This document shows, piece by piece, positions 384 to 12,448 of a stretch of 45,566 nt of DNA. The notes beneath the pieces were generated by a model. The model had not been told where the DNA came from and made no database searches. It saw only the letters and a program-made list of their open reading frames with translations. The DNA is taken from the sequence record NC_073325.1; one strand, 5' to 3'. The position numbers and the translations under genes were made by a program. Each line of letters starts with the position of its first letter. Position 1 is the stretch's first letter. Source of the DNA: Escherichia phage vB_EcoS_XY1.

Positions 384-2939
384 TTAATTAAAACCATTGC
401 TGAATCCGTCGGAGAAACCGCTGCCGTATGGCGCGACGCCGTCGTATTTATAGAATCCGTCGTCATAGTTGTAGCCTGTAATCTTGACCGTGCGGTCGTC
501 GCCGGGTTCGATTGAAGAAACAACTATCTTCTGAGCATTATGCCTTGCTTCGTTGCCGAATGAAAACTCAGTTTTTAGTGCGCTATTCCCCGTGTAGATT
601 GCTTCTTCCGGCGCGGAGAGCATAATCACTTCGCGGTCGTGGCTTCCTTTGATAACGGAGATACTCTGTACAGAGCCATCGCGCTTCTTGAGGATGATGG
701 AGTGGTCATCACCCGGAGTAAACGCAACCGGCTGTGACAGTGTCAGCGTAAGCCCATTAACGGCAGCAACATAGCCGTCCTGTGGCGCAATACGCGAGCC
801 TTTAACTACGCTGATTACACCGCCTGGGGTAGCGAGCGCACCTTCTTCGGTAGCTTCAAACTCTACGACAACTTTACTTAACGCATTGCGCTGGTAGCGA
901 CGCCACGCCAGCCAGTACGCTTGCTGATAGTTGCGCACGCCCTTCGATTCGTATTCCTCGGTGTTTGCCCCTAGTTCTTCCGGGATATAAATAGTTTCCT
1001 GTACGTTCGTATCCGGGTCGATGTATGAGAACGACAGGCTATCGTAGGTTGTCGAATCGTTGAACGTGCGGGTCCATTTCTCAGTACCGGTAGTTTTGCT
1101 GCGGTGGGTGAACACCATTTCAGGCCCCGCGACAGGACGGTCGAATCGCAGCATAATATCCGCACCTTTACGGTACGCAGTACAGAAAACGGCTTCCGCT
1201 ATGGTCTGGACGATGTCCTGCATGGTTGTGTCATAGTCGTCGAACGTGTAGCAGAATTGCCCTGCTAATTCACTTCCGAAATAGGACTCAATTTCTTCCT
1301 GCACAGCAAGTAACTTGTCCATGTTTGCCGTTGTCAGTTCCAGATTGCCTACTGCGGGGTCGCGCGCCAGTCGAATTAGAGATTGTACGGCTTGCGTGTT
1401 CGGTGTCATTACTGTATCGAATACCCCATTGCCGAGGTATTTGTAGCACATCTCGGTCGCAATCATGCGCAGTTCAGGGTTATCGATACTGGCGGCCCGC
1501 GGCGTCTGTTTACGGGCGCAATGTACGGTAGTTCGGTTGCCGTAGTGTGGAGTGGTGTCCAGAGACTGCCCATACAGGTTAATGAATGTTATCTCGTCGC
1601 TTACCGTTCCGTCATAGTCCTTATCAAAATTCGTTATACGGCGCATACGGGCGCGGAAACGAGACGCGGTCGGCAACTGCCCGTAGATAGACGTACCAAC
1701 GTAATCCGTGCTATTACCAGTAATCGTAGCCTGTACCGTGTAAATATCGCTCAACGGGTTACGCTGAGAGTCAATCATCTGGTACTGGAGTTCCACCGTT
1801 ACGCTGGTGCGGTTATAGCCGCCGTCGTATTTGTAGATGCCGTTCTGCCCGACAACGTTCGCAAGCACCCGGTCAACTTCTCCGCGCACCATGTAATACC
1901 AGTCTGTCAGGGATACGTCATAGGTGTCGCTCGGGCCGATAAACGTATCTGAACGCTCTGTTAGGGCGTACGTCTGCCCGCTGGTCAACGCCGCCCAGTT
2001 AGACGCACCGTTTACCGCTAATCTTACTTCGAAGTCATCAACGTATAAAACCTCAAACGAGCCGTTCAGGTTAGTGACATCAGCAACGTCAAAGTTGCTC
2101 AGCACCGCGACATCACCGACGCTAAGAAACTCAGAAAAAGCAGAGTCGCCCGACGGGTCATAGATGTAGCCGGTGGTCGAAGTACGTTTGGCGGTTCCAC
2201 CGGAGCTTGGGTTAGCCCCAATGTCGTTTGGCGCTTTGAGCACAATACCGTCAACGTCGTCATTGGAGTACGTCACATAGAGCTTCTGATCAATGACGTC
2301 GCCGATTTGTACCTGCGGCGATGTGGTGTTGTTCGGTGACGTATACGGCGCGTACACGGCAACAGAGGAACCTGTGATGTCGCTTATCAGGGTGTCGCCT
2401 TCCGTGACGCCATCGGCCTCAATATACAGATGTCCGCGCCCGGCGTCGTAGTACGAATACTCCAGCAAAGCACCAGTGGAGTTGAACGCTTTATACGTCT
2501 GCATAAGGTCGTTAGGGATTGTCTGCACAGTCCCGCAGATGTCATAAGAGCGCTCGTAAGGGCGTGGTTTGTTTGAGCGGTCCGTGAGGCTGTTATTTGG
2601 CGATGTTGTCTGGTTGTTAGTCGCCGTATAGTTGGCGTTTGCGGACATGTTCAGGCCAAACAACTTAGCGATTGGCTTAAGGATAAAACCAAATACCTTA
2701 CTAACTGCACCAAGCGCCCCGCTACCCGCACCCTCAATAATATGGTACACGGCGTCTTCGTCTTTAAGCGCTTCGAAGTCGTCTGTAACATCAGTATCAT
2801 CGCCAATCTCGCCGAGGTAGACGCGCACAGGCACACCGTCCGGAATACGGCTAACAACAAACTCCATCGGCATCCCGACGTGTTTTGTACGGTCGAAAGC
2901 GCCATCAGCGTTTCGCGAGTAGTGCAGGATTATCGCCAA
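384..2939 (-). CDS. Central tail fibre / tail tip protein (host-specificity J-like)
   Basis: 851-aa ORF directly downstream of the tail assembly genes and upstream of the tailspike; call rests on size and position. Confidence 0.5.
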   Translation of the reverse strand: MAIILHYSRNADGAFDRTKHVGMPMEFVVSRIPDGVPVRVYLGEIGDDTDVTDDFEALKDEDAVYHIIEGAGSGALGAVSKVFGFILKPIAKLFGLNMSANANYTATNNQTTSPNNSLTDRSNKPRPYERSYDICGTVQTIPNDLMQTYKAFNSTGALLEYSYYDAGRGHLYIEADGVTEGDTLISDITGSSVAVYAPYTSPNNTTSPQVQIGDVIDQKLYVTYSNDDVDGIVLKAPNDIGANPSSGGTAKRTSTTGYIYDPSGDSAFSEFLSVGDVAVLSNFDVADVTNLNGSFEVLYVDDFEVRLAVNGASNWAALTSGQTYALTERSDTFIGPSDTYDVSLTDWYYMVRGEVDRVLANVVGQNGIYKYDGGYNRTSVTVELQYQMIDSQRNPLSDIYTVQATITGNSTDYVGTSIYGQLPTASRFRARMRRITNFDKDYDGTVSDEITFINLYGQSLDTTPHYGNRTTVHCARKQTPRAASIDNPELRMIATEMCYKYLGNGVFDTVMTPNTQAVQSLIRLARDPAVGNLELTTANMDKLLAVQEEIESYFGSELAGQFCYTFDDYDTTMQDIVQTIAEAVFCTAYRKGADIMLRFDRPVAGPEMVFTHRSKTTGTEKWTRTFNDSTTYDSLSFSYIDPDTNVQETIYIPEELGANTEEYESKGVRNYQQAYWLAWRRYQRNALSKVVVEFEATEEGALATPGGVISVVKGSRIAPQDGYVAAVNGLTLTLSQPVAFTPGDDHSIILKKRDGSVQSISVIKGSHDREVIMLSAPEEAIYTGNSALKTEFSFGNEARHNAQKIVVSSIEPGDDRTVKITGYNYDDGFYKYDGVAPYGSGFSDGFSNGFN

Positions 2940-3295
2940 AATTCAATCTCCGTGTACGTGTCTCTGAGGTCCGCCAGCCTGTCAAGCCGTACCTGGCGGG
3001 ATGCAAGCTCGCAATGACTCACCATCCCGTCGAAGTAAACTCCCGCATGCCACACGATACGACCCCCGCGGCGATAACCCATAAGCACCGCGCAGAAGTT
3101 TTCAGGCTTATCAATTTTTGTAAGCCCCTTCGTGTCACGGCGGCCTTCGTCAAACGCTTCGTTAATTGCCGTTGGGCTTGTAACGTCGAACGCAGGGGTT
3201 TCTAACCCGGCATCCGCGCGGACAATGCGCACGTGATGCCAGCAATTGCGTTTGCGAAAGTCGTAAGGTATGCCCGTGTAGTCGTTAATATTCAT
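2930..3295 (-). CDS. Tail assembly protein with NlpC/P60-like motifs (gpK-like)
   Basis: 121 aa; candidate catalytic Cys in NCWHH and His in VWHAGVY; sits in the distal tail gene block. Confidence 0.45.
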   Translation of the reverse strand: MNINDYTGIPYDFRKRNCWHHVRIVRADAGLETPAFDVTSPTAINEAFDEGRRDTKGLTKIDKPENFCAVLMGYRRGGRIVWHAGVYFDGMVSHCELASRQVRLDRLADLRDTYTEIEFWR

Positions 3296-3807
3296 GTGGT
3301 CAACAGGCCGCGTAATAACGGTATCTCTTTAGGTGTCATCAGTATACCAGTGCTTCGTTGGTTCAGCATAGGTGTACCGACATCTGCGGAAAACTCGCCT
3401 TTCTCCTGATTGATGGCCTGTAACTCGTACACGACAGGGCCGTCCGCAGGATAAGACAGGTCGGTGCCGACGTAACGGCGGAATACAAACTTCGGCAACT
3501 CGGTGTTACTCATCGGGATTTTATCCATCTCATCATCAAGTTGATTGAGAATATCCGGTAGTGTAAACGTCGTCGTCTGGTCCATATCGCTGTTGTTAGC
3601 GGCCCCGGACGCCTCCATCGGGGTGGGTTCGAATGTGATAGTTTCGCCGGTTTCCAGTGTCGCCGTAAGTTCCTGTAGCCCACGAACAAGATAGTACGTC
3701 TTTGACAACAACGGGTGGCTGATTTGCAACGTGATGTAGTCTATCTCGCCGTCGGGATTTGATGCCAACTTACGGCGATAGGCAGCTTCTACTGATTCCT
3801 GACTCAT
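3292..3807 (-). CDS. Minor tail protein
   Basis: 171-aa ORF with start/stop overlap to its neighbours in the tail block; no motif recognised. Confidence 0.4.
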   Translation of the reverse strand: MSQESVEAAYRRKLASNPDGEIDYITLQISHPLLSKTYYLVRGLQELTATLETGETITFEPTPMEASGAANNSDMDQTTTFTLPDILNQLDDEMDKIPMSNTELPKFVFRRYVGTDLSYPADGPVVYELQAINQEKGEFSADVGTPMLNQRSTGILMTPKEIPLLRGLLTT

Positions 3808-3810
3808 AAG

Positions 3811-5211
3811 TTAGCCGTCCACATTAAAATCAATACGAGTGATATATTTACTACCCCACGCAGAATCGGCCTGAGGGATAGTCGCGTAATCATCTACAGC
3901 CTGAACGTTTATCACGGAGCCGTCGGAATAGGTGATGTCGATACTTGTCGCGCCGTTCATTACTACTTTTGCCGATGGCGCTGGGCGTGTTACAGGAGAC
4001 GCCGACGTAATTATTGGTGATGTTGTATTTTGGTTTACCTCTACAGTAGCCGCGGATAATTTAATCCCTGAAACGCCATCCCCCGTAAAGGATCCGGTAA
4101 CTCCGTCTGAATATATCCATGCGTCCATCCGTATGCTCATTGTTTTATCTTCTGTCGCGGTGATCGTCTCCGATATTCGGAACCACCCTCCGCCTACGTC
4201 GGTTACATCTGTACCGCCTGGGCCGGAATAAATGCTACCATCCCGCAAATCAACAACTGCCGAGCCTAATACTGTAGGAAGTTCTCGCACGTACATCCGT
4301 ATGAAATTGTATCCGTTTGCTTTTGCGAAGAAACTAAAAGTAACCATGTCGCCAACACCAACGCTAACATCTACAGTCTGGTTTATTAGGTGGTTACCGC
4401 TTGCGGCGGTAGCAGTTACGTCGTACGTGCCAGCGGCTGTTAAAACACCTGTTTCAGATACTGATACACTCACCAAACCTTTGTTCCAGTTTGACGAAGA
4501 GAAATTGCTTGAATATAGGAATCTGTTAGTTACTGATACCTCTGGTGGCACGCGCCCGGCGGCAACCCCGTCAATAAACGTAAGAGGCCATTCATTGGCG
4601 GCGGACTGTACAAGATTACCATTGCGGTTGATGTAATAAACCTGCGGCCCCTCATACACAATGCGGCTATCAAGAGTCGACGCCAGAAGGTTAATCGGCG
4701 GATACCCGGCGGGGCCTTCATTGCTCCAGATGCGAGGGAACGTCGTCTCATAGTTCGCGTATATTTTCAGGAAACTACCCAGACAATCCCCGTAACAACC
4801 GTACAAATCTGGAAGATTGTTAATCAGGCACTGGTTCTCAAGGTCCTGGAACGGAGATTTCTCCGCGGTTGCCGTGAAAGTAATCGTCCAGTTAATCCCG
4901 TCTTCTGTGGATTCCGCGATGGTTGACGTAATGGTTACCTGATAATCCTCGATACCCATGCCGAAGTCGTGCGCCATCCAGAAACTTGACGCACCGCCAT
5001 CGACTTTCTCAAGGAACGACAGGAACGCCTGCCGCCCTAGTGCTGAGGTAATCAGGGTTACGCTTATTGGGAACACGTCGTAATACGTGTCGCGCCCCTG
5101 GCGCACTCCGCCGCCAGCTAAATCAACGCTCCAGACGTTGTTACGTCGGGTCATTGAGTAGCCTTTCGACACCACCGGCTTTAAACTTGCTGGAAATTTC
5201 AAAGAAGACAT
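3811..5211 (-). CDS. Minor tail / distal tail protein
   Basis: 466 aa, first gene after the tape measure on this strand; AGGAG SD; Ser/Thr/Gly-rich beta-type composition. Confidence 0.45.
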   Translation of the reverse strand: MSSLKFPASLKPVVSKGYSMTRRNNVWSVDLAGGGVRQGRDTYYDVFPISVTLITSALGRQAFLSFLEKVDGGASSFWMAHDFGMGIEDYQVTITSTIAESTEDGINWTITFTATAEKSPFQDLENQCLINNLPDLYGCYGDCLGSFLKIYANYETTFPRIWSNEGPAGYPPINLLASTLDSRIVYEGPQVYYINRNGNLVQSAANEWPLTFIDGVAAGRVPPEVSVTNRFLYSSNFSSSNWNKGLVSVSVSETGVLTAAGTYDVTATAASGNHLINQTVDVSVGVGDMVTFSFFAKANGYNFIRMYVRELPTVLGSAVVDLRDGSIYSGPGGTDVTDVGGGWFRISETITATEDKTMSIRMDAWIYSDGVTGSFTGDGVSGIKLSAATVEVNQNTTSPIITSASPVTRPAPSAKVVMNGATSIDITYSDGSVINVQAVDDYATIPQADSAWGSKYITRIDFNVDG

Positions 5212-5246
5212 GGCAAGATACTCCTATTAGTTTAGGAGATACTAAC

Positions 5247-5897
5247 ATGATGCCAACCGAAAAAGTAGCCAAGAGCATGTGGCTGCGTGCGAATTATCCT
5301 GCGAACAAAAGCAGCAAAACTAAGCGTGCAACTATATGCGATTTTGGCATAAATGACGCCGATTATGTGGTTAGCCCCAAGATAAACGGCAACCGTGAGA
5401 CGTGTCTGGCGTACGCTACATGGCGAGGGATGATCCAACGTTGCGTGGACGCCGAGTATAAAAACAAAAGGCCTGCGTACAGGGATGTAACTGTGTGGCA
5501 TGGGTGGCAAAGGTTTATGTCCTTCCGTAGATGGTGGCTTTGTAATTATGTGGAGGGATGGGAGCTAGATAAGGATATATTCTCTGGTATTAATAAGGTA
5601 TACAGCCCTACCACTTGCATCTTCATCCCTAAATGGCTGAATGTTTTCCTAAAGGAAAAGAAAAATAGGGGAACACCTACGGGTGTTTTTTATGAAGAAT
5701 CTAGAGGTAAATTTAAAGCCTCAGTGAGCTATGATAAAAAAACTATTAATCTAGGACGTTTTGAAACTCAGGAAGAAGCGCTAGATGCTTACATTGCTGA
5801 AAAGATAAGGGTGGCGGAATCAAGAAGATGTGAGATAGAGGCGATAAGGGAAGGTATGTTCGACCGCGTTATCGCCTTGATAAAAGAGGGTCGTTAG
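5247..5897 (+). CDS. Homing-endonuclease-like protein (HNH-associated family with AP2-type DNA-binding domain)
   Basis: AGGAGA SD 7 nt before ATG; motifs YATWRGMIQRC, WELDKDIFSGINKVYSPTTCIFIP and AP2-like INLGRFETQEEALDAYIAE; opposite strand to the flanking tail genes. Confidence 0.45.
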   Translation: MMPTEKVAKSMWLRANYPANKSSKTKRATICDFGINDADYVVSPKINGNRETCLAYATWRGMIQRCVDAEYKNKRPAYRDVTVWHGWQRFMSFRRWWLCNYVEGWELDKDIFSGINKVYSPTTCIFIPKWLNVFLKEKKNRGTPTGVFYEESRGKFKASVSYDKKTINLGRFETQEEALDAYIAEKIRVAESRRCEIEAIREGMFDRVIALIKEGR

Positions 5898-8637: not shown

Positions 8638-9054
8638 CTACTTTTCCTGCAATTGGTGAAGCTGTTCGTTGTGGAAAACAACAACGTGTTCAGCGAGGCG
8701 TTTATATTGTGAGAAAAGAGTGTTCAGGTTCTCTTTATTAAATTCATCGTCGAGACTCCAACCGTTAACCAGTTCAAGTGCTAACTGGCGGTTAAGGTCC
8801 GTCGCGGCGTCTTCCATCTTAATATTGTATTCCGAGAAATCTTTCAGTTCCTCACATTTATCACGAAGCGGTTTCAATTTACCTAATGCCGCGCGGTACG
8901 CAAGTGTAAACGCCCTCATAGCTTTAACGGCAACGTCTGCCTCCGGTGAAACAACGTTCAGCCACTCCCCTGAATCGGTGCCGTCTTTCAGTGGTATTGG
9001 CATACGGGCGCCTTTTTCTGCCTCAGCTTCGTAATAAAAATCAGAAAGTTTCAT
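8638..9054 (-). CDS. Tail assembly chaperone (G-like)
   Basis: 138 aa, acidic, directly upstream of the -1 frame ORF and the tape measure; AAAGGA SD. Confidence 0.55.
   Translation of the reverse strand: MKLSDFYYEAEAEKGARMPIPLKDGTDSGEWLNVVSPEADVAVKAMRAFTLAYRAALGKLKPLRDKCEELKDFSEYNIKMEDAATDLNRQLALELVNGWSLDDEFNKENLNTLFSQYKRLAEHVVVFHNEQLHQLQEK
8641..8647 (-). other. Putative -1 programmed ribosomal frameshift site (GAAAAG followed by the TAG stop)
   Basis: A-rich slippery run at the last codons of 8638-9054; the -1 frame continues without a stop into 8273-8632. Confidence 0.4.
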
Positions 9055-9160
9055 TCTTTAATCCTTTGGTTAAGAGGTTACTGGTTAAGGTTAATGCGCC
9101 AGACGGGAACCACCCGCTTTTCGTGTGCGACACTAGGCGCAAAATAATTCTAACACATTA

Positions 9161-9197
9161 CTTGCACACCCCAACATAATAGGATACTATTCACTTA
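9161..9197. promoter_or_regulatory. 37-bp bidirectional promoter/operator element (inverted copy of 30192-30228)
   Basis: Plus orientation TTGCAC-N17-TACTAT; minus orientation TTGGTG-N16-TATTAT; contains the palindrome AATAG-N4-CTATT; 36 of 37 nt identical to the reverse complement of 30192-30228. Confidence 0.5.
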
Positions 9198-9231
9198 CAC
9201 CAACAATGTTAACTCAAACAGGAGCTACCCC

Positions 9232-9423
9232 ATGACAGGTATTACTATGTTCTTCTTAATCATTATCGTTTTAGTTTATTTTATCCCATTTCTCGTGGCG
9301 CATATGCGCAACCATAAAGCTAAATTAGCGATATTCATGGCTAATCTGTTTCTCGGTTGGGTTCTGCTGCCGTGGGTATTTATTTTAATCTGGGCGTGCA
9401 ACTCGAATGTCAAAGAGAAGTGA
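9232..9423 (+). CDS. Small membrane protein, superinfection-immunity (Imm) -like
   Basis: 63 aa with two hydrophobic helices; NLFLGW..W...IWA-type motif as in the Imm_superinfect family; AGGAG SD. Confidence 0.45.
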   Translation: MTGITMFFLIIIVLVYFIPFLVAHMRNHKAKLAIFMANLFLGWVLLPWVFILIWACNSNVKEK

Positions 9424-9461
9424 GCTAGTATAGGACAAATCCTAAACACGAGGAAGTAAGC

Positions 9462-10616
9462 ATGGCCCAGAAGAAAATAACCGACGAACAGTTACAGGAA
9501 GAATTGAACGCCGGGATGAAGATTATTGATATCGCCCGTAAATACGGCATCTCAGACCGCGTTATTCGTATCCGTAAAGCGAAGCTGGCTAAGAAAGGTG
9601 TAGGCCACGGGCGTGACGTTAGTCACCTTGTACCGGACGGCTACAAGATTAAAGGAACGTCGTCTCTGGTTGATGAGTTAGGCAACACTAAACTGCAATG
9701 GGTTAAGACCGACACCGATGCGGAACGTCAGGTCGAGTTAATGAAAGCCGTTGTGGACGAGATGAAAAAAGATTTACCCAAGTATAAGCCAGTCACTTTG
9801 GCCAAAAATGGGACAGATGACGACTTATTAAATCTTTACACAATAACAGACCATCACATAGGGATGTTGGCGTGTCAAGAAGAAGGCGGGGATGATTACG
9901 ACACCACAATCGCGGAATCTCTCGCGGTTGACTGGTTCAACAGTGCGGTTTGTATGAGTCCACAGAGTGGTGAATGTATCATTAACTTCTTAGGGGACCA
10001 AATGCACTACGACGGCATGAAGGCAATGACCCCTATGAGCGGTCATATTCTTTCAGCGGATAGTCGCCTGTTTAAAATGATACGCACGGCCATTAAGGTT
10101 ATCAAGCTGGCTGTCTCACTGTGCTTGCGAAAACACAAGAAGGTTAAACTTCTTATCTGTGAAGGTAACCACGACCTTAGTTCTTCTCTGTGGCTCCGGG
10201 AGATGTTCTACGAGGTATACACAAATGAGCCTCGCGTCGAGGTTAACCGGGAGGTGTCACCGTATTATGCGTACAAGTTCGGGGATTGTATGATTTCAGC
10301 ACATCACGGGCATTGTTCTAACTTTGCTAAGGTAGAGCAGGCTATAATCGGTAAGTACCGGGAGATGTACGGGCGGTGTAAGTTCACATATGTCCATACG
10401 GGGCACCTCCATCACAGGGCGGTTAAAGAGACTAATCTGCTAATTGTTGAGCAACACCAGACATTAGCGGCTAAAGATGAGTATTCTAGTAAGGGCGGCT
10501 ATTATTCAGGTAGAAGCGCAAATGTGATTACATACCACAAACGTTACGGGGAGGTGTCCCGCATAAGTATACCTGTCGAAATGCTGCGAGACATAAACCC
10601 AAAATCGACATACTAA
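9462..10616 (+). CDS. HTH domain fused to a calcineurin-like metallophosphoesterase
   Basis: N-terminal HTH (IIDIARKYGISDRVIR); metallophosphoesterase-like motifs TDHHIG, LGDQMHYDG, EGNHD, HHGH, TGHLHH. Confidence 0.45.
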   Translation: MAQKKITDEQLQEELNAGMKIIDIARKYGISDRVIRIRKAKLAKKGVGHGRDVSHLVPDGYKIKGTSSLVDELGNTKLQWVKTDTDAERQVELMKAVVDEMKKDLPKYKPVTLAKNGTDDDLLNLYTITDHHIGMLACQEEGGDDYDTTIAESLAVDWFNSAVCMSPQSGECIINFLGDQMHYDGMKAMTPMSGHILSADSRLFKMIRTAIKVIKLAVSLCLRKHKKVKLLICEGNHDLSSSLWLREMFYEVYTNEPRVEVNREVSPYYAYKFGDCMISAHHGHCSNFAKVEQAIIGKYREMYGRCKFTYVHTGHLHHRAVKETNLLIVEQHQTLAAKDEYSSKGGYYSGRSANVITYHKRYGEVSRISIPVEMLRDINPKSTY

Positions 10617-10631
10617 AATATAGGTGAAAGT

Positions 10632-11195
10632 ATGGATTGGAGTGAGGTTTTTAGCTACAAAAATGGCGTCCTATACTGGAAAGTCAAATCATGTCGCCGT
10701 AACGATGTGAATACAGGTGATGTGGCCGGGAGTTTGTGTAAAAACGGCTATTGGTATGTCATGTTTGGTAACCGTAAGTTTAAAAGGTCGAGGGTGGTGT
10801 ATGAGATGTTCAGTACGCTGTATGACAATGAGCCGCGTGTGTTCGTCGATACGTCACCGGATGTTTACAAGATGGTGCAACACGGCAAAACGACGCTGTT
10901 CTTCCATCACGGGCATAAAGCACGATTCGACGCTATCGAACCGGTTATGATTGCCAAGTTTCGTAAAGCGTTCGGCGAGAGTGTTTACAGCTACGCCCAC
11001 GTAGGCCACCTGCACCATCAGAAGATTGTAGAAAGCCGTAACATGATTGTTGAGCAACACCGCACCTTAGCGGCTAAAGATGCCTACGCCTCCCGCGGCG
11101 GTTGGATGTCGGGCCGTAGTGCAAATGTAATTACTTATAGCGCCGAATATGGCGAGGTCGCACGTTTAACTATTTCACCGGAGATGCTTGGATGA
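10632..11195 (+). CDS. Chimeric paralog: homing-endonuclease-type N-terminal DNA-binding region fused to a duplicate of the C-terminal ~100 aa of 9462-10616
   Basis: N-terminus NGVLYWKV...GDVAGS...NGYWYV...RSRVVY follows the pattern that precedes the catalytic motif in phage HNH endonucleases; C-terminus HHGH...HVGHLHH...IVEQHRTLAAKD...GRSANVITY is clearly homologous to the end of the upstream gene. Confidence 0.4.
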   Translation: MDWSEVFSYKNGVLYWKVKSCRRNDVNTGDVAGSLCKNGYWYVMFGNRKFKRSRVVYEMFSTLYDNEPRVFVDTSPDVYKMVQHGKTTLFFHHGHKARFDAIEPVMIAKFRKAFGESVYSYAHVGHLHHQKIVESRNMIVEQHRTLAAKDAYASRGGWMSGRSANVITYSAEYGEVARLTISPEMLG

Positions 11196-11680
11196 AAGAT
11201 ATTGTGATTTTCGATTTAGACGGGACATTGGCCGATGGTACTCATCGTTTACATCTGCTGCCGAAAGATAACTACGGCGAAACCTGGGCGTGGAAGCCTT
11301 TTAACATGGCCTGTAAAGATGATGCGCCGATATATGACAACATTCACTTGTGCAACACACTGTGGCATACCGGGATGACCATAATCATCCTTACCGGGCG
11401 CAGTGATGATGCTGAGGATGAGACCCGTAAATGGTTGCGAGAAAATAACGTTAAGTTTGACACGCTGATAATGCGCAGCAAACACGACAACAGAAAAGAC
11501 ATCGCAATTAAAGAAGAGGTGTTGCGTGCTATCGGGCTGGAGAGAATCTTGTGTGCGTTCGACGACTCTCCAGCGGTAATAAAGCATTTCCGTAACCTCG
11601 GCATAACCACTCACGCAGTTACCGAATACGACTGTAACGGGAACTCTACACACTTAAAATCACACGGGAGTGATAAATAA
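11192..11680 (+). CDS. HAD-superfamily phosphatase (nucleotidase or polynucleotide 3'-phosphatase-like)
   Basis: Motif I FDLDGTL, motif II ILTGR, downstream Lys and FDD motifs; ATGA start/stop overlap with upstream gene. Confidence 0.6.
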   Translation: MKDIVIFDLDGTLADGTHRLHLLPKDNYGETWAWKPFNMACKDDAPIYDNIHLCNTLWHTGMTIIILTGRSDDAEDETRKWLRENNVKFDTLIMRSKHDNRKDIAIKEEVLRAIGLERILCAFDDSPAVIKHFRNLGITTHAVTEYDCNGNSTHLKSHGSDK

Positions 11681-12249
11681 TGGCTAAGGTAATTATTCTT
11701 AATGGTCCTGCTGGTTGCGGGAAAGACACACTTGCTATGGCGCTGGTAGAAATGGGCTTTGCAAAAGGGACTACCAGTTTCAAGAATCCAATGTTCAATA
11801 TTGCGCTGGCGGCGTTAGGCCAGGATGCCTACCACGAGTTTCTCGACGGCTACGACGACCGTGCCCGGAAAGAAAAGCCAGAGGGTTTCCTTAATGGGTT
11901 GTCTCGGCGTCAGTTCATGATCGCCATTTCTGAGCAATTCATTAAACCAGTACTTGGTAGTGATTATTTCGGTAAGTATCTCGCTGAAAACTTGCCTGAC
12001 GGCGACGAAGTTTTTGTAGTGTCCGACGGTGGATTCGCCAGTGAAGTTGCCCCTATCGTCGCCGCAGGGCATGACGTGCGAATCGTCCGCCTCCATCGTG
12101 ACGGCTATACGTTCATCGGCGATAGCCGTGGCTATCTGTATGATATCGATGGTGCGGTATGTCATGACGTCGACGTCATTCCGGGCGAGATTACATTAAC
12201 AGCGGCCGCGATTGCTAATAGAATCCTGGGGATTTACCCAAATGCGTGA
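11680..12249 (+). CDS. P-loop kinase (dNMP kinase or polynucleotide kinase-like)
   Basis: Walker A GPAGCGKDT near the N-terminus, resembling phage dNMP kinase; start immediately after the HAD gene stop. Confidence 0.5.
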   Translation: MAKVIILNGPAGCGKDTLAMALVEMGFAKGTTSFKNPMFNIALAALGQDAYHEFLDGYDDRARKEKPEGFLNGLSRRQFMIAISEQFIKPVLGSDYFGKYLAENLPDGDEVFVVSDGGFASEVAPIVAAGHDVRIVRLHRDGYTFIGDSRGYLYDIDGAVCHDVDVIPGEITLTAAAIANRILGIYPNA

Positions 12250-12419: not shown

Positions 12420-12448
12420 AAAAGGCCCCGAAAGGGGCCTTAGTTTTA
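12420..12448. terminator. Bidirectional rho-independent terminator (identical copy at 42857-42885)
   Basis: AAAAGGCCCCGAAAGGGGCCTTAGTTTTA: GC stem with A/T runs on both sides, between convergent gene ends. Confidence 0.7.

What the first reader, a model, noticed from the sequence alone, without database searches (positions are those of the whole stretch)
10632..11195. Chimeric gene: homing-endonuclease-type N-terminus fused to a duplicated fragment of the neighbouring metallophosphoesterase
Seen: the last ~100 residues of 10632-11195 (HHGH...HVGHLHH...IVEQHRTLAAKD...GRSANVITY...EML) are clearly homologous to the last ~100 residues of 9462-10616, with roughly 60 percent identity by eye. Its first ~60 residues follow the pattern that normally precedes the catalytic motif in phage HNH homing endonucleases (NGVLYWKV, GDVAGS, NGYWYV, RSRVVY), but no HNH catalytic motif follows. 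Inference: this is a footprint of a homing-endonuclease invasion with partial target duplication, or a domain-shuffled regulatory variant that keeps only the C-terminal metal-binding module.
Basis: partly seen in the sequence, partly recalled or inferred. Interest (0 to 1): 0.6.

Follow-up and report, generated by a model that had tools for sequence, protein, structure and literature searches.

The report
Recombination scar: dead endonuclease–phosphoesterase fusion
This small phage gene is a leftover of a botched gene-cassette transfer between two related phage groups: the first 60 codons of a selfish "homing" nuclease gene were joined in frame to the last 130 codons of the phage's original phosphoesterase gene, giving a protein that lacks the catalytic residues of both parents and is probably an evolutionary scar, not a new function.

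Summary
ORF 10632-11195 (187 aa) is a chimera. Residues 1-60/61 are 98% identical to the N-terminus of a 166-aa free-standing HNH_3 endonuclease that is intact in about 115 Jerseyvirus-type phages and in E. coli phage BUCT823. Residues 58-187 are homologous to the C-terminus of the neighbouring metallophosphoesterase (MPE; BLASTP E=8e-45).

The fragment is the resident Kagunavirus MPE allele ("A"): it is 97.7% nt identical to phage vB_VIPECOTH07 and still overlaps the start of the downstream phosphatase gene ("PNK"). The intact neighbour carries an imported Jerseyvirus-type catalytic domain ("B"), only about 49% aa identical, which always travels with the HNH gene.

Window 9750-10801 (1052 bp) replaced about 450 bp of the native MPE. 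The left junction is homologous, at MPE nt ~290. The right junction is a 9-10 bp microhomology, (T)GAGATGTTC, at 10802-10811, the longest exact match between the two genes. It is in frame.

The product lacks every HNH catalytic residue and MPE motifs I-III. No other genome or metagenome searched carries this junction.

It matches the experimentally known "one-sided homing with illegitimate repair" in T4. The feature is real, well explained and not novel in kind.

The parts
9462..10616 (+). Intact 384-aa metallophosphoesterase (MPE), itself a hybrid. Codons 1 to about 96 form a Kagunavirus-type N-terminal helix-turn-helix region. Codons about 97-384 are the Jerseyvirus-type 'allele B' catalytic domain.
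   Evidence: PHROG 704, E=5e-150. All invariant MPE motif residues are present: D130, H132, D179, H182, N236, H237, D238, H281-284, G314, H315, H317. The AF2 model (pLDDT 79) matches Mre11, Rv0805 and GpdQ. N-terminal part is 97% aa identical to VIPECOTH07; catalytic part is 98-99% to buks, SETP3 and BUCT823 but only 46-49% to VIPECOTH07.
9750..10801 (+). Imported Jerseyvirus-type tract: allele-B catalytic domain, 15-nt spacer and the first ~170 nt of the HNH gene. It replaces about 450 bp of the native allele-A MPE, a net gain of about 603 bp.
   Evidence: Window 9000-9749 matches VIPECOTH07 at 97.9% and window 10802-12154 resumes the match, while 9000-10811 matches BUCT823 at 95.9%. The tract is 96.7% identical to BUCT823 and 94.5-95.4% to Jerseyviruses.
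10617..10631 (+). Spacer between MPE-B and the HNH start, containing a Shine-Dalgarno-like AGGTGA (10622-10627) inherited from the HNH gene.
   Evidence: Sequence read directly. The spacer is identical in layout in wksl3, buks, BUCT823, SETP3 and QS.
10632..10811 (+). 5' fragment (codons 1-60) of a free-standing HNH_3 homing-type endonuclease gene. All catalytic residues are missing.
   Evidence: tblastn gives 98.4% identity to BUCT823 HNH aa 1-61. PHROG 99, E=2.8e-13. The HNH_3 domain of the intact protein lies at aa 53-95. The DNA alignment to BUCT823, wksl3 and buks stops at 10811.
10802..10811 (+). Recombination junction. Microhomology TGAGATGTTC is shared by the HNH gene (codons 58-60, EMF) and MPE allele A (codons 247-249, EMF). 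The join is in frame.
   Evidence: Three-way alignment of BUCT823, the window and VIPECOTH07. GAGATGTTC is the longest exact match between the HNH gene and the allele-A catalytic region.
10803..11195 (+). Remnant of the resident Kagunavirus MPE allele A (codons 247-376 plus stop). It keeps motifs IV (HHGH) and V (GHLHH) only.
   Evidence: 97.7% nt identity to the MPE 3' ends of VIPECOTH07, BUCT825 and EF2-1. 129 of 130 aa are identical to VIPECOTH07, with 8 synonymous and 1 nonsynonymous difference.
11192..11680 (+). HAD-type polynucleotide-kinase phosphatase gene ('PNK'). Its ATG overlaps the chimera's TGA (ATGA at 11192-11195), as it overlaps the intact allele-A MPE in other Kagunaviruses.
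   Evidence: Pfam HAD_PNKP, E=9e-21. PHROG 415. VIPECOTH07 annotation shows MPE ending at 2893 and PNK starting at 2890.

Best explanation
The ORF is a recombination scar, not a designed gene.

In the subfamily Guernseyvirinae the MPE catalytic domain exists as two very different alleles. Allele A has a stop codon that overlaps the start of the next gene. Allele B is always followed by a free-standing HNH endonuclease gene or a deletion remnant of one. Allele B plus HNH behaves as one replaceable cassette. Its left boundary lies at MPE nt ~290, inside a conserved stretch.

The window is a Kagunavirus closest to vB_VIPECOTH07, and that group normally has MPE-A, then PNK, then a dNMP kinase. A B/HNH cassette came in from a BUCT823-like or Jerseyvirus-like co-infecting phage. 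On the left the exchange was resolved by homologous recombination. On the right there is no homology, because donors carry HNH-orf76 where Kagunaviruses carry PNK. The join was therefore made at the best available microhomology, (T)GAGATGTTC, between HNH codons 58-60 and MPE-A codons 247-249.

The result is: intact hybrid MPE-B, spacer, HNH codons 1-60 fused in frame to MPE-A codons 247-376, then PNK.

Shown: the parentage of each segment, both junctions, the loss of all catalytic residues, and the uniqueness of the junction.

Inferred:
(i) The event was started by an HNH-made break in the allele-A gene and repaired 'one-sidedly', as shown experimentally for T4 intron homing.
(ii) The ORF is still translated from the inherited HNH ribosome-binding site, and the in-frame read-through to the ATGA overlap keeps PNK translationally coupled. 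That may be why this particular recombinant was viable.
(iii) The protein itself has no enzymatic role.
For: Segment parentage:
- Window 9000-9749 is 97.9% identical to VIPECOTH07, with 9000-9479 at 100%.
- Window 9750-10811 is 96.7% identical to BUCT823 and 94-95% to Jerseyviruses.
- Window 10802-11200 is 97.7% identical to VIPECOTH07's MPE 3' end.
- The rest of the genome is Kagunavirus, 94-96% to VIPECOTH07.

Junction: the base-level alignment shows the switch inside TGAGATGTTC. This is the longest exact match between the HNH gene and the allele-A catalytic region.

Cassette behaviour:
- LPSE1 (allele A, no HNH) and wksl3 (allele B plus HNH) are both Jerseyviruses. Their flanks are 97.8% and 99.2% identical, but they differ by a clean swap of 836 vs 1390 bp starting at MPE nt 291. 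That is the same left boundary as in the window and BUCT823.
- A and B are 46-49% aa identical, while the N-terminal region follows the genus.
- 115 records carry the HNH at 90% identity or more, and 115 records carry the contiguous B-HNH-hyp arrangement.
- HNH-less allele-B phages (SETP3, QS) still hold the first 37 nt and last ~10 nt of the HNH gene.
- BUCT823 is a Kagunavirus backbone with the complete cassette.

Loss of function: there is no Pfam domain, only HNH aa 1-61 occur anywhere in the window, and MPE motifs I-III are absent.

Expression context: the Shine-Dalgarno-like site and the ATGA overlap are read from the sequence. No terminator-like site was found on the + strand upstream of or inside the chimera; the first + strand candidate is a weak hairpin at 11992-12005, and a strong bidirectional hairpin closes the module at 12422-12441.

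Precedent: 'one-sided' homing gives illegitimate double-strand-break repair with junctions at microhomologies (review PMC2988022, citing Parker et al. 1999).
Against: - Nothing here shows that the HNH enzyme cuts allele A, or that a break started the event. Any illegitimate recombination or template switch during co-infection would give the same product.
- A 9-mer shared by the two genes is expected by chance (about 1.6 expected), so the microhomology is opportunistic rather than diagnostic.
- The direction of the cross cannot be resolved: a cassette entering a VIPECOTH07-like phage, or a BUCT823-like phage regaining PNK and the dNMP kinase.
- The remnant shows 8 synonymous and 1 nonsynonymous change against VIPECOTH07. 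That is compatible with a very recent event but also with continued purifying selection.
- Expression and translational coupling are not measured. PNK also has its own GGAG 8 nt upstream.
Confidence: 0.82

Rival explanations
1. Same product, but unrelated to endonuclease activity. Ordinary illegitimate recombination or replication template-switching between two co-infecting Guernseyvirinae happened to join the HNH gene and MPE-A at a 9-10 bp microhomology.
For: Shared 9-mers between the genes are expected by chance. Microhomology-mediated deletions are common at this locus without any need for cleavage: the HNH deletion at AACGGC in SETP3 and QS, and in-frame internal MPE deletions in P0007, P0076 and P0114.
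Against: Both breakpoints fall exactly within the HEG cassette and the gene it is linked to. The left boundary coincides with the recurrent cassette boundary at nt ~290 seen in Jerseyvirus A/B swaps. That fits break-initiated gene conversion better than a random join, but it is not decisive.
Confidence: 0.35
2. Two-step origin. A larger insertion first created a tandem arrangement (MPE-B, HNH, further donor DNA, then full or partial MPE-A, then PNK). A later deletion between the GAGATGTTC repeats removed the HNH 3' part and the MPE-A 5' part.
For: Microhomology deletions of the HNH gene do occur in this lineage. The final junction would be identical.
Against: No genome with the proposed intermediate was found among 50,697 phage records. 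It needs two illegitimate events instead of one.
Confidence: 0.1
3. The fusion is a functional new protein. It might be a non-catalytic partner or antagonist of the intact MPE, or a factor that uses the HNH N-terminal strands plus half an MPE fold in a regulatory role.
For: The ORF is intact and in frame, and it has a good ribosome-binding site. The remnant part shows only 1 conservative amino-acid change against 8 synonymous ones.
Against: - It is private to one genome. No protein in 5.8 billion clusters covers more than 84% of it, and the junction is absent from IMG/VR and JGI metagenomes.
- The fragment is half of a single-domain sandwich.
- The HNH-derived N-terminus is predicted with low confidence (pLDDT below 50 for aa 1-23).
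- The substitution pattern is equally explained by a recent origin.
Confidence: 0.05
4. Assembly artefact. A mixed lysate of a BUCT823-like and a VIPECOTH07-like phage was assembled into one chimeric contig.
For: Both parental types exist as E. coli phages. The left flank is 100% identical to VIPECOTH07 for about 480 bp.
Against: The two parents share only 9-10 identical bases at the join, far below any assembler k-mer or overlap length. The join is in frame and leaves a coherent operon. An artefact would more likely collapse the homologous MPE regions than duplicate them.
Confidence: 0.03
5. Intragenomic tandem duplication of the 3' part of the neighbouring MPE followed by divergence (the literal reading of the finding's title).
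For: Two homologous MPE 3' regions lie 200 bp apart on the same strand.
Against: The two copies are only 49% aa identical. Yet each is 98-99% aa identical over this region to a different pre-existing allele in other phages.
Confidence: 0.01

Closest known systems
Free-standing HNH homing endonuclease genes of phages (Pfam HNH_3, PF13392; e.g. T4 MobE; here Jerseyvirus wksl3 gp48 / buks_10)
   Same: The first 60-61 residues are 98% identical to this specific Jerseyvirus HNH. The intact gene sits in an intergenic position next to a conserved gene and is linked to a divergent allele of that gene, as with the T-even seg and mob genes (PMC2988022, PMC2790892).
   Different: The window copy is cut off at codon 60, before the His/Asn catalytic residues and the C-terminal region. 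It cannot be an endonuclease. Cleavage activity and the target of the intact enzyme have not been tested by anyone, as far as these tools show.
[quoted passage not shown]
   Same: There is a homologous junction on one side and a microhomology junction on the side that lacks homology. Donor sequence is only partly copied and recipient sequence is retained next to it.
   Different: This is a natural product in siphoviruses of another subfamily, involving a free-standing HNH gene rather than an intron-encoded GIY-YIG enzyme. Initiation by a break is inferred, not observed.
Calcineurin-like metallophosphoesterases of the Mre11/SbcD type (PHROG 704 'DNA repair exonuclease')
   Same: The C-terminal 130 residues are 99% identical to the Kagunavirus member of this family and carry motifs IV and V.
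   Different: Motifs I-III (DxH, GDxxH, GNHD) and the first beta-sheet of the sandwich are missing, as is the N-terminal helix-turn-helix region.
Degenerate or defunct homing endonuclease genes (e.g. the defunct I-TevIII of T4; the invasion-degeneration-loss cycle of selfish endonuclease genes)
   Same: A truncated, inactive endonuclease gene is left at its insertion site. Sister lineages show other decay products, such as the 14-codon mini-ORF in SETP3 and QS.
   Different: Here the truncation arose at the moment of transfer, or by one recombination event, and fused the remnant to another gene fragment. It did not arise by point mutations or a simple internal deletion.

Membership tests
HNH endonuclease (Pfam HNH_3 PF13392, beta-beta-alpha-metal fold) | HNH_3 domain detected above the curated threshold | tested here: not met
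   Pfam finds 0 families for the 187-aa protein and no HNH_3 hit for aa 1-61. The intact relative scores 58.2 bits (cut-off 24.8) at aa 53-95.
HNH endonuclease (Pfam HNH_3 PF13392, beta-beta-alpha-metal fold) | Catalytic His ... Asn ... Asn/His residues (IDH, ENL and DN in the intact protein) | tested here: not met
   Homology to the intact HNH ends at residue 61. No other part of the window encodes the rest.
HNH endonuclease (Pfam HNH_3 PF13392, beta-beta-alpha-metal fold) | Sequence homology to the pre-catalytic N-terminal region of family members | tested here: met
   PHROG 99, E=2.8e-13 for aa 1-60. 98.4% identity to BUCT823 HNH aa 1-61.
Calcineurin-like metallophosphoesterase | Metal-binding motifs I (DxH), II (GDxxD/H) and III (GNHD/E) | tested here: not met
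   The chimera's homology starts at MPE codon 247, after N236-H237-D238. The invariant columns D130, H132, D179, H182 and N236-D238 have no counterpart.
Calcineurin-like metallophosphoesterase | Motifs IV (H) and V (GHxH) | tested here: met
   H92-H95 (HHGH) and G125, H126, H128 (GHLHH) are aligned and invariant.
Calcineurin-like metallophosphoesterase | Complete alpha-beta-beta-alpha sandwich fold (tested on the neighbour, 9462-10616) | tested here: met
   The neighbour's AF2 model (pLDDT 79.4) hits Mre11 (4tug, E=1.8e-6), Rv0805, GpdQ and purple acid phosphatase. The chimera corresponds only to the strands from residue 259 onward.
Mobile free-standing homing endonuclease gene (applies to the intact parent gene) | Presence/absence polymorphism at one locus between otherwise near-identical genomes | tested here: met
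   LPSE1 vs wksl3 have flanks 97.8% and 99.2% identical, with a swapped segment of 836 vs 1390 bp. 115 records are HNH-positive, against many HNH-negative Jerseyviruses.
Mobile free-standing homing endonuclease gene (applies to the intact parent gene) | Linked (co-converted or immune) allele of the neighbouring gene | tested here: met
   Allele B was found only with the HNH or its deletion remnant in all six allele-B genomes examined (the window, BUCT823, wksl3, buks, SETP3, QS). The record counts also agree, 115 vs 115. This is a count-level test, not an exhaustive genome-by-genome one.
Mobile free-standing homing endonuclease gene (applies to the intact parent gene) | Site-specific cleavage of the endonuclease-less allele and biased inheritance in crosses | not testable with these tools
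   Requires enzyme assays and co-infection crosses.
One-sided homing / illegitimate double-strand-break repair product | Homologous junction on one flank, microhomology junction on the flank without homology | tested here: met
   The left switch lies within the conserved region at about 9690-9750. The right switch lies within TGAGATGTTC at 10802-10811. Donor-type phages carry HNH-orf76 where Kagunaviruses carry PNK, so there is no right-hand homology.
One-sided homing / illegitimate double-strand-break repair product | Initiation by an endonuclease-made break in the recipient | not testable with these tools
   Inferred only.

The most novel reading that the evidence does not exclude
The fusion is not a neutral scar but is kept because it is expressed and useful. 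One possibility is a catalytically dead protein that combines the DNA-contacting N-terminal strands of the HNH enzyme with half an MPE fold and shields the retained allele-A target sequence from HNH-positive competitors. Another is that it modulates the intact MPE. A third is that its in-frame translation is required to deliver ribosomes to the coupled PNK gene.
Probability: 0.05. Interest if true: 0.55.

Novelty: new member of a known kind. Interest (0 to 1): 0.25.

Why it matters
It is a clean natural example of how selfish endonuclease cassettes reshuffle phage genomes. Close relatives resembling both parents are available (vB_VIPECOTH07 for the resident backbone, BUCT823 or Jerseyviruses for the cassette), and the junction is resolved to the base.

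It shows an allele-B MPE plus HNH cassette crossing from Jerseyvirus-type into Kagunavirus-type phages. It also shows what happens when homology exists on only one side.

For annotators, it warns that this ORF should not be called an HNH endonuclease or a DNA repair exonuclease. It does not open a new biological question.

Tried and rejected
- **Pfam on the chimera and on aa 1-61** gave no domain. The N-terminal identity had to come from PHROGs and from the intact homologue found through BUCT823.
- **PDB sequence search with the neighbour MPE** gave nothing meaningful. The fold had to be checked by AF2 plus Foldseek.
- **Looking for the same fusion elsewhere** found nothing. This covered a 5.8-billion-cluster protein search, a degenerate 33-mer of the junction in IMG/VR and JGI metagenomes, and INPHARED, where no record covers 80% or more of the locus.
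- **Short MPE C-terminal proteins** were checked as possible sister chimeras.
  - P0003 is just a nonsense-split MPE (L005).
  - P0076 is an in-frame internal deletion (L006).
  - Neither involves an HNH.
- **AF2 of the chimera** is not discriminating. The C-terminal part is modelled as in the full protein. The N-terminal part has low confidence and is partly forced onto MPE columns by the alignment.
- **Counting HNH-deletion junctions** with a 70-nt query failed, because two-piece hits in HNH-positive genomes are merged. Only SETP3 and QS were read at base level. 26YS and Psm147 are inferred carriers from single-piece hits.
- **Literature search** for Jerseyvirus HNH homing found no specific study. 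Parker et al. 1999 is not held, so the review PMC2988022 is cited instead.
- **Intragenomic duplication and misassembly** were both considered and rejected (see the rival explanations).

Full report
**What the window is.** The 45.6-kb window is essentially a complete Kagunavirus genome (subfamily Guernseyvirinae). Its closest deposited relative is Escherichia phage vB_VIPECOTH07, at 94.4% identity over the first 25 kb and 96.4% over the rest. The finding lies in a small + strand module between the tail-assembly-chaperone and major-tail genes, which are on the - strand. In ordinary Kagunaviruses this module reads: superinfection immunity, metallophosphoesterase (MPE, PHROG 704), HAD-type polynucleotide-kinase phosphatase ('PNK'), dNMP-kinase-like P-loop protein, and a small ORF. 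The MPE stop overlaps the PNK start by 4 nt. Nearly all of the 359 related records lack about 600 bp that the window has between MPE and PNK.

**Check of the observation.** ORF 10632-11195 is a 187-aa ATG ORF.
- Its C-terminal part is homologous to the neighbour 9462-10616. BLASTP gives E=8e-45. Identity is 49% over the 130 truly homologous residues and 52% over the last 100.
- PHROG 704 matches aa 42-186 to the last 145 profile positions, E=1.3e-62.
- The N-terminal 60 residues hit PHROG 99 'HNH endonuclease', E=2.8e-13.
- Pfam sees no domain at all in the chimera.

**Parent of the N-terminal part.** The best DNA match to the locus, Escherichia phage BUCT823, continues through the first 180 nt of the ORF and then diverges. 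BUCT823 has an intact 166-aa ORF at that position, with a Pfam HNH_3 domain at aa 53-95 (58 bits). The same protein, at 97.6-98.2% identity in the listed hits, is annotated as an HNH or homing endonuclease in about 113 further records. Almost all are Salmonella Jerseyviruses such as wksl3 and vB_SenS-Ent1, plus E. coli phage buks. In those phages the gene order is sii, MPE, HNH, hyp, Ant. The window holds only residues 1-61 of this protein and no trace of the rest. All catalytic residues are gone.

**Parent of the C-terminal part, and the direction of the 'duplication'.** Window 10802-11200 is 97.7% nt identical to the 3' end of the single MPE gene of VIPECOTH07, BUCT825 and EF2-1. At the protein level 129 of 130 residues are identical, with 8 synonymous and 1 conservative nonsynonymous codon difference. 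The fragment keeps the native ATGA overlap with PNK.

The intact neighbour behaves differently. It is VIPECOTH07-like only up to window ~9749 (100% identity for 9000-9479). From 9750 onward it is Jerseyvirus-like, at 90-98% per 60-nt block. Overall that tract is 96.7% identical to BUCT823 and 94.5-95.4% to Jerseyviruses.

So the fragment is the resident allele's remnant, and the neighbour's catalytic domain is the incomer. The two are not products of an intragenomic duplication.

**Two MPE alleles and a cassette.** A protein alignment shows two catalytic-domain alleles.
- Allele A is 376-377 aa and ends in SPEMLG. It occurs in VIPECOTH07 (Kagunavirus) and LPSE1 (Jerseyvirus).
- Allele B is 384 aa and ends in DINPKSTY. 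It occurs in wksl3, buks, SETP3, BUCT823 and the window.
- A and B are only 46-49% identical. The N-terminal ~96 residues (a helix-turn-helix region in the AF2 model) follow the genus instead.

LPSE1 and wksl3 are both Jerseyviruses, with flanks 97.8% and 99.2% identical. They differ by a clean swap that begins at MPE nt 291 and ends at the start codon of the next gene. The swapped segment is 836 bp (allele A) versus 1390 bp (allele B, spacer and HNH). That left boundary is the same as in the window and in BUCT823.

Allele B is linked to the HNH. 115 records hold the HNH at 90% identity or more, and 115 hold the contiguous B-HNH-hyp arrangement. The two HNH-less allele-B phages I inspected, SETP3 and QS, still carry the first 37 nt and last ~10 nt of the HNH gene. 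They are deletion derivatives at an AACGGC microhomology.

BUCT823 is a Kagunavirus backbone: its flanks are 93.4% and 90.1% identical to the window and 95.5% and 93.7% to VIPECOTH07, against 72-82% to Jerseyviruses. In it the full cassette (allele B, HNH, orf76) has replaced the allele-A 3' part, PNK, the dNMP kinase and orf68.

**The junction.** A three-way base alignment shows the window following the HNH gene up to 10811 and following allele A from 10802. The shared bases are TGAGATGTTC. That is 9 nt against BUCT823 and 10 nt against the wksl3/buks form. They encode E-M-F in both genes, so the fusion is in frame. GAGATGTTC is the longest exact match between the HNH gene and the allele-A catalytic region. 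About 1.6 shared 9-mers are expected by chance, so the site was used opportunistically. Overall, window 9750-10801 (1052 bp) replaces about 450 bp of native MPE, a net gain of about 603 bp.

**Most likely mechanism.** An allele-B/HNH cassette was transferred into a Kagunavirus during co-infection. E. coli-infecting carriers exist, namely buks and BUCT823.
- The left side was resolved by homologous recombination in the conserved stretch around MPE nt 130-290.
- The right side had no homology, because the donor has HNH-orf76 where the recipient has PNK. It was joined at a microhomology.

[quoted passage not shown] Free-standing T-even endonucleases likewise drag flanking alleles along by co-conversion (PMC2988022, PMC2790892).

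That the HNH enzyme made the initiating break in allele A is an inference. The same product could come from break-independent illegitimate recombination. The direction of the cross (cassette gained, or PNK module regained by a BUCT823-like phage) cannot be resolved.

**What the ORF does now.**
- It lacks the HNH_3 core.
- It lacks MPE motifs I-III. The invariant residues D130, H132, D179, H182 and N236-D238 of the family have no counterpart, and only HHGH and GHLHH remain.
- It corresponds to the second half of a single-domain sandwich rather than to an autonomous module.
- AF2 gives the HNH-derived N-terminus low confidence. This prediction cannot tell whether the protein is stable.
- It inherits the HNH gene's Shine-Dalgarno-like AGGTGA (10622-10627) and ends in the ATGA overlap with PNK.
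- No terminator-like site lies on the + strand upstream of or inside it. The only + strand candidates are a weak hairpin at 11992-12005, inside the dNMP-kinase-like gene, and the strong bidirectional hairpin at 12422-12441 that closes the module.

I therefore expect it to be transcribed and translated as a by-product. The in-frame join may have helped this recombinant survive by preserving translational coupling to PNK. That last point is an inference, since PNK also has its own GGAG 8 nt upstream.

**Uniqueness.** No protein among 5.8 billion clusters covers more than 84% of the chimera. A degenerate 33-mer across the junction is absent from IMG/VR and JGI metagenome contigs. No INPHARED record has the arrangement. 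This argues for a recent, private event and against a conserved function.

**Artefact check.** The parents share only 9-10 identical bases at the join, too few for an assembler to bridge, and the product is a coherent in-frame operon. Misassembly is unlikely but can only be excluded with reads.

**Verdict.** The corrections are:
- the fragment is the resident allele and the neighbour the invader;
- the join is a one-sided, microhomology-mediated resolution;
- there is no evidence for a regulatory variant.

It is a new instance of a known kind of event. Interest is modest.

Noticed in passing
L003 (wksl3) 2620-4009 vs L009 (LPSE1) 965-1800; window 9750: In Guernseyvirinae the MPE catalytic domain exists as two alleles only 46-49% identical. 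They are exchanged as a block with a sharp left boundary at MPE nt ~290, the linker after the N-terminal helix-turn-helix region, in both Jerseyvirus and Kagunavirus backgrounds. Allele B is linked to the HNH gene.
   Followed up: partly
L008 (SETP3) 1801-1846; L007 (vB_SalP_QS) about 1800-1865: Allele-B Jerseyviruses that lack the HNH are not empty sites. They keep the first 37 nt and last ~10 nt of the HNH gene as a 14-codon mini-ORF (MDWSEVFSYKNGYK*), created by deletion at an AACGGC microhomology. Phages 26YS and Psm147 probably carry the same junction: each gave a single-piece, full-length hit to the 70-nt junction query, but I did not read their sequences.
   Followed up: partly
L001 (BUCT823, PQ729991) 3550-5312: BUCT823 is a Kagunavirus backbone in which the 3' part of MPE-A, PNK, the dNMP kinase and orf68 are all replaced by a Jerseyvirus-type cassette (MPE-B catalytic domain, intact HNH, 76-aa ORF). 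PNK and the kinase are therefore dispensable in this group. The record is flagged UNVERIFIED and has no annotation.
   Followed up: partly
L005 1854-2984; L006 3001-3345; proteins P0007, P0076, P0114: The MPE gene is decayed in several Kagunavirus-like contigs. One has a nonsense split into 246 + 129 aa. Others have in-frame internal deletions that leave 114-199-aa proteins, with the N-terminal helix-turn-helix region fused to the C-terminal end. P0076 keeps the overlap with PNK. The enzyme is evidently not essential.
   Followed up: partly
L003 (wksl3) about 3415-3448: wksl3 has one extra G in a G-run near the 3' end of MPE-B (GGGGG vs GGGG in buks, SETP3, BUCT823 and the window). This frameshifts the last ~12 codons, and the gene is annotated as 372 aa instead of 384 aa.
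   Followed up: no
window 12422-12441: A perfect 8-bp GC-rich hairpin (AAGGCCCC-GAAA-GGGGCCTT) with T-runs on both strands looks like a bidirectional terminator. It separates the + strand sii-MPE-PNK module from the convergent major tail gene. It also marks the right-hand boundary of the cassette replacement in BUCT823.
   Followed up: no
window 9462-12249: The gene set comprises an MPE with an N-terminal helix-turn-helix region, a HAD-type PNKP phosphatase and a P-loop kinase, and it is translationally coupled. It resembles the end-healing activities of RNA/DNA repair enzymes such as Pnkp (from my own knowledge, not tested here). Whether this module repairs nucleic-acid ends, for example after host anticodon nuclease attack, was not examined.
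   Followed up: no
window 10200-10208 and 10803-10811: The junction nonamer GAGATGTTC occurs exactly twice in the whole window, both on the + strand. One copy is at the equivalent EMF codons of the intact allele-B MPE and one is at the fusion point. These two direct repeats, 603 bp apart, could mediate a further in-frame deletion. That deletion would yield a simple B/A hybrid MPE and erase the HNH remnant.
   Followed up: no
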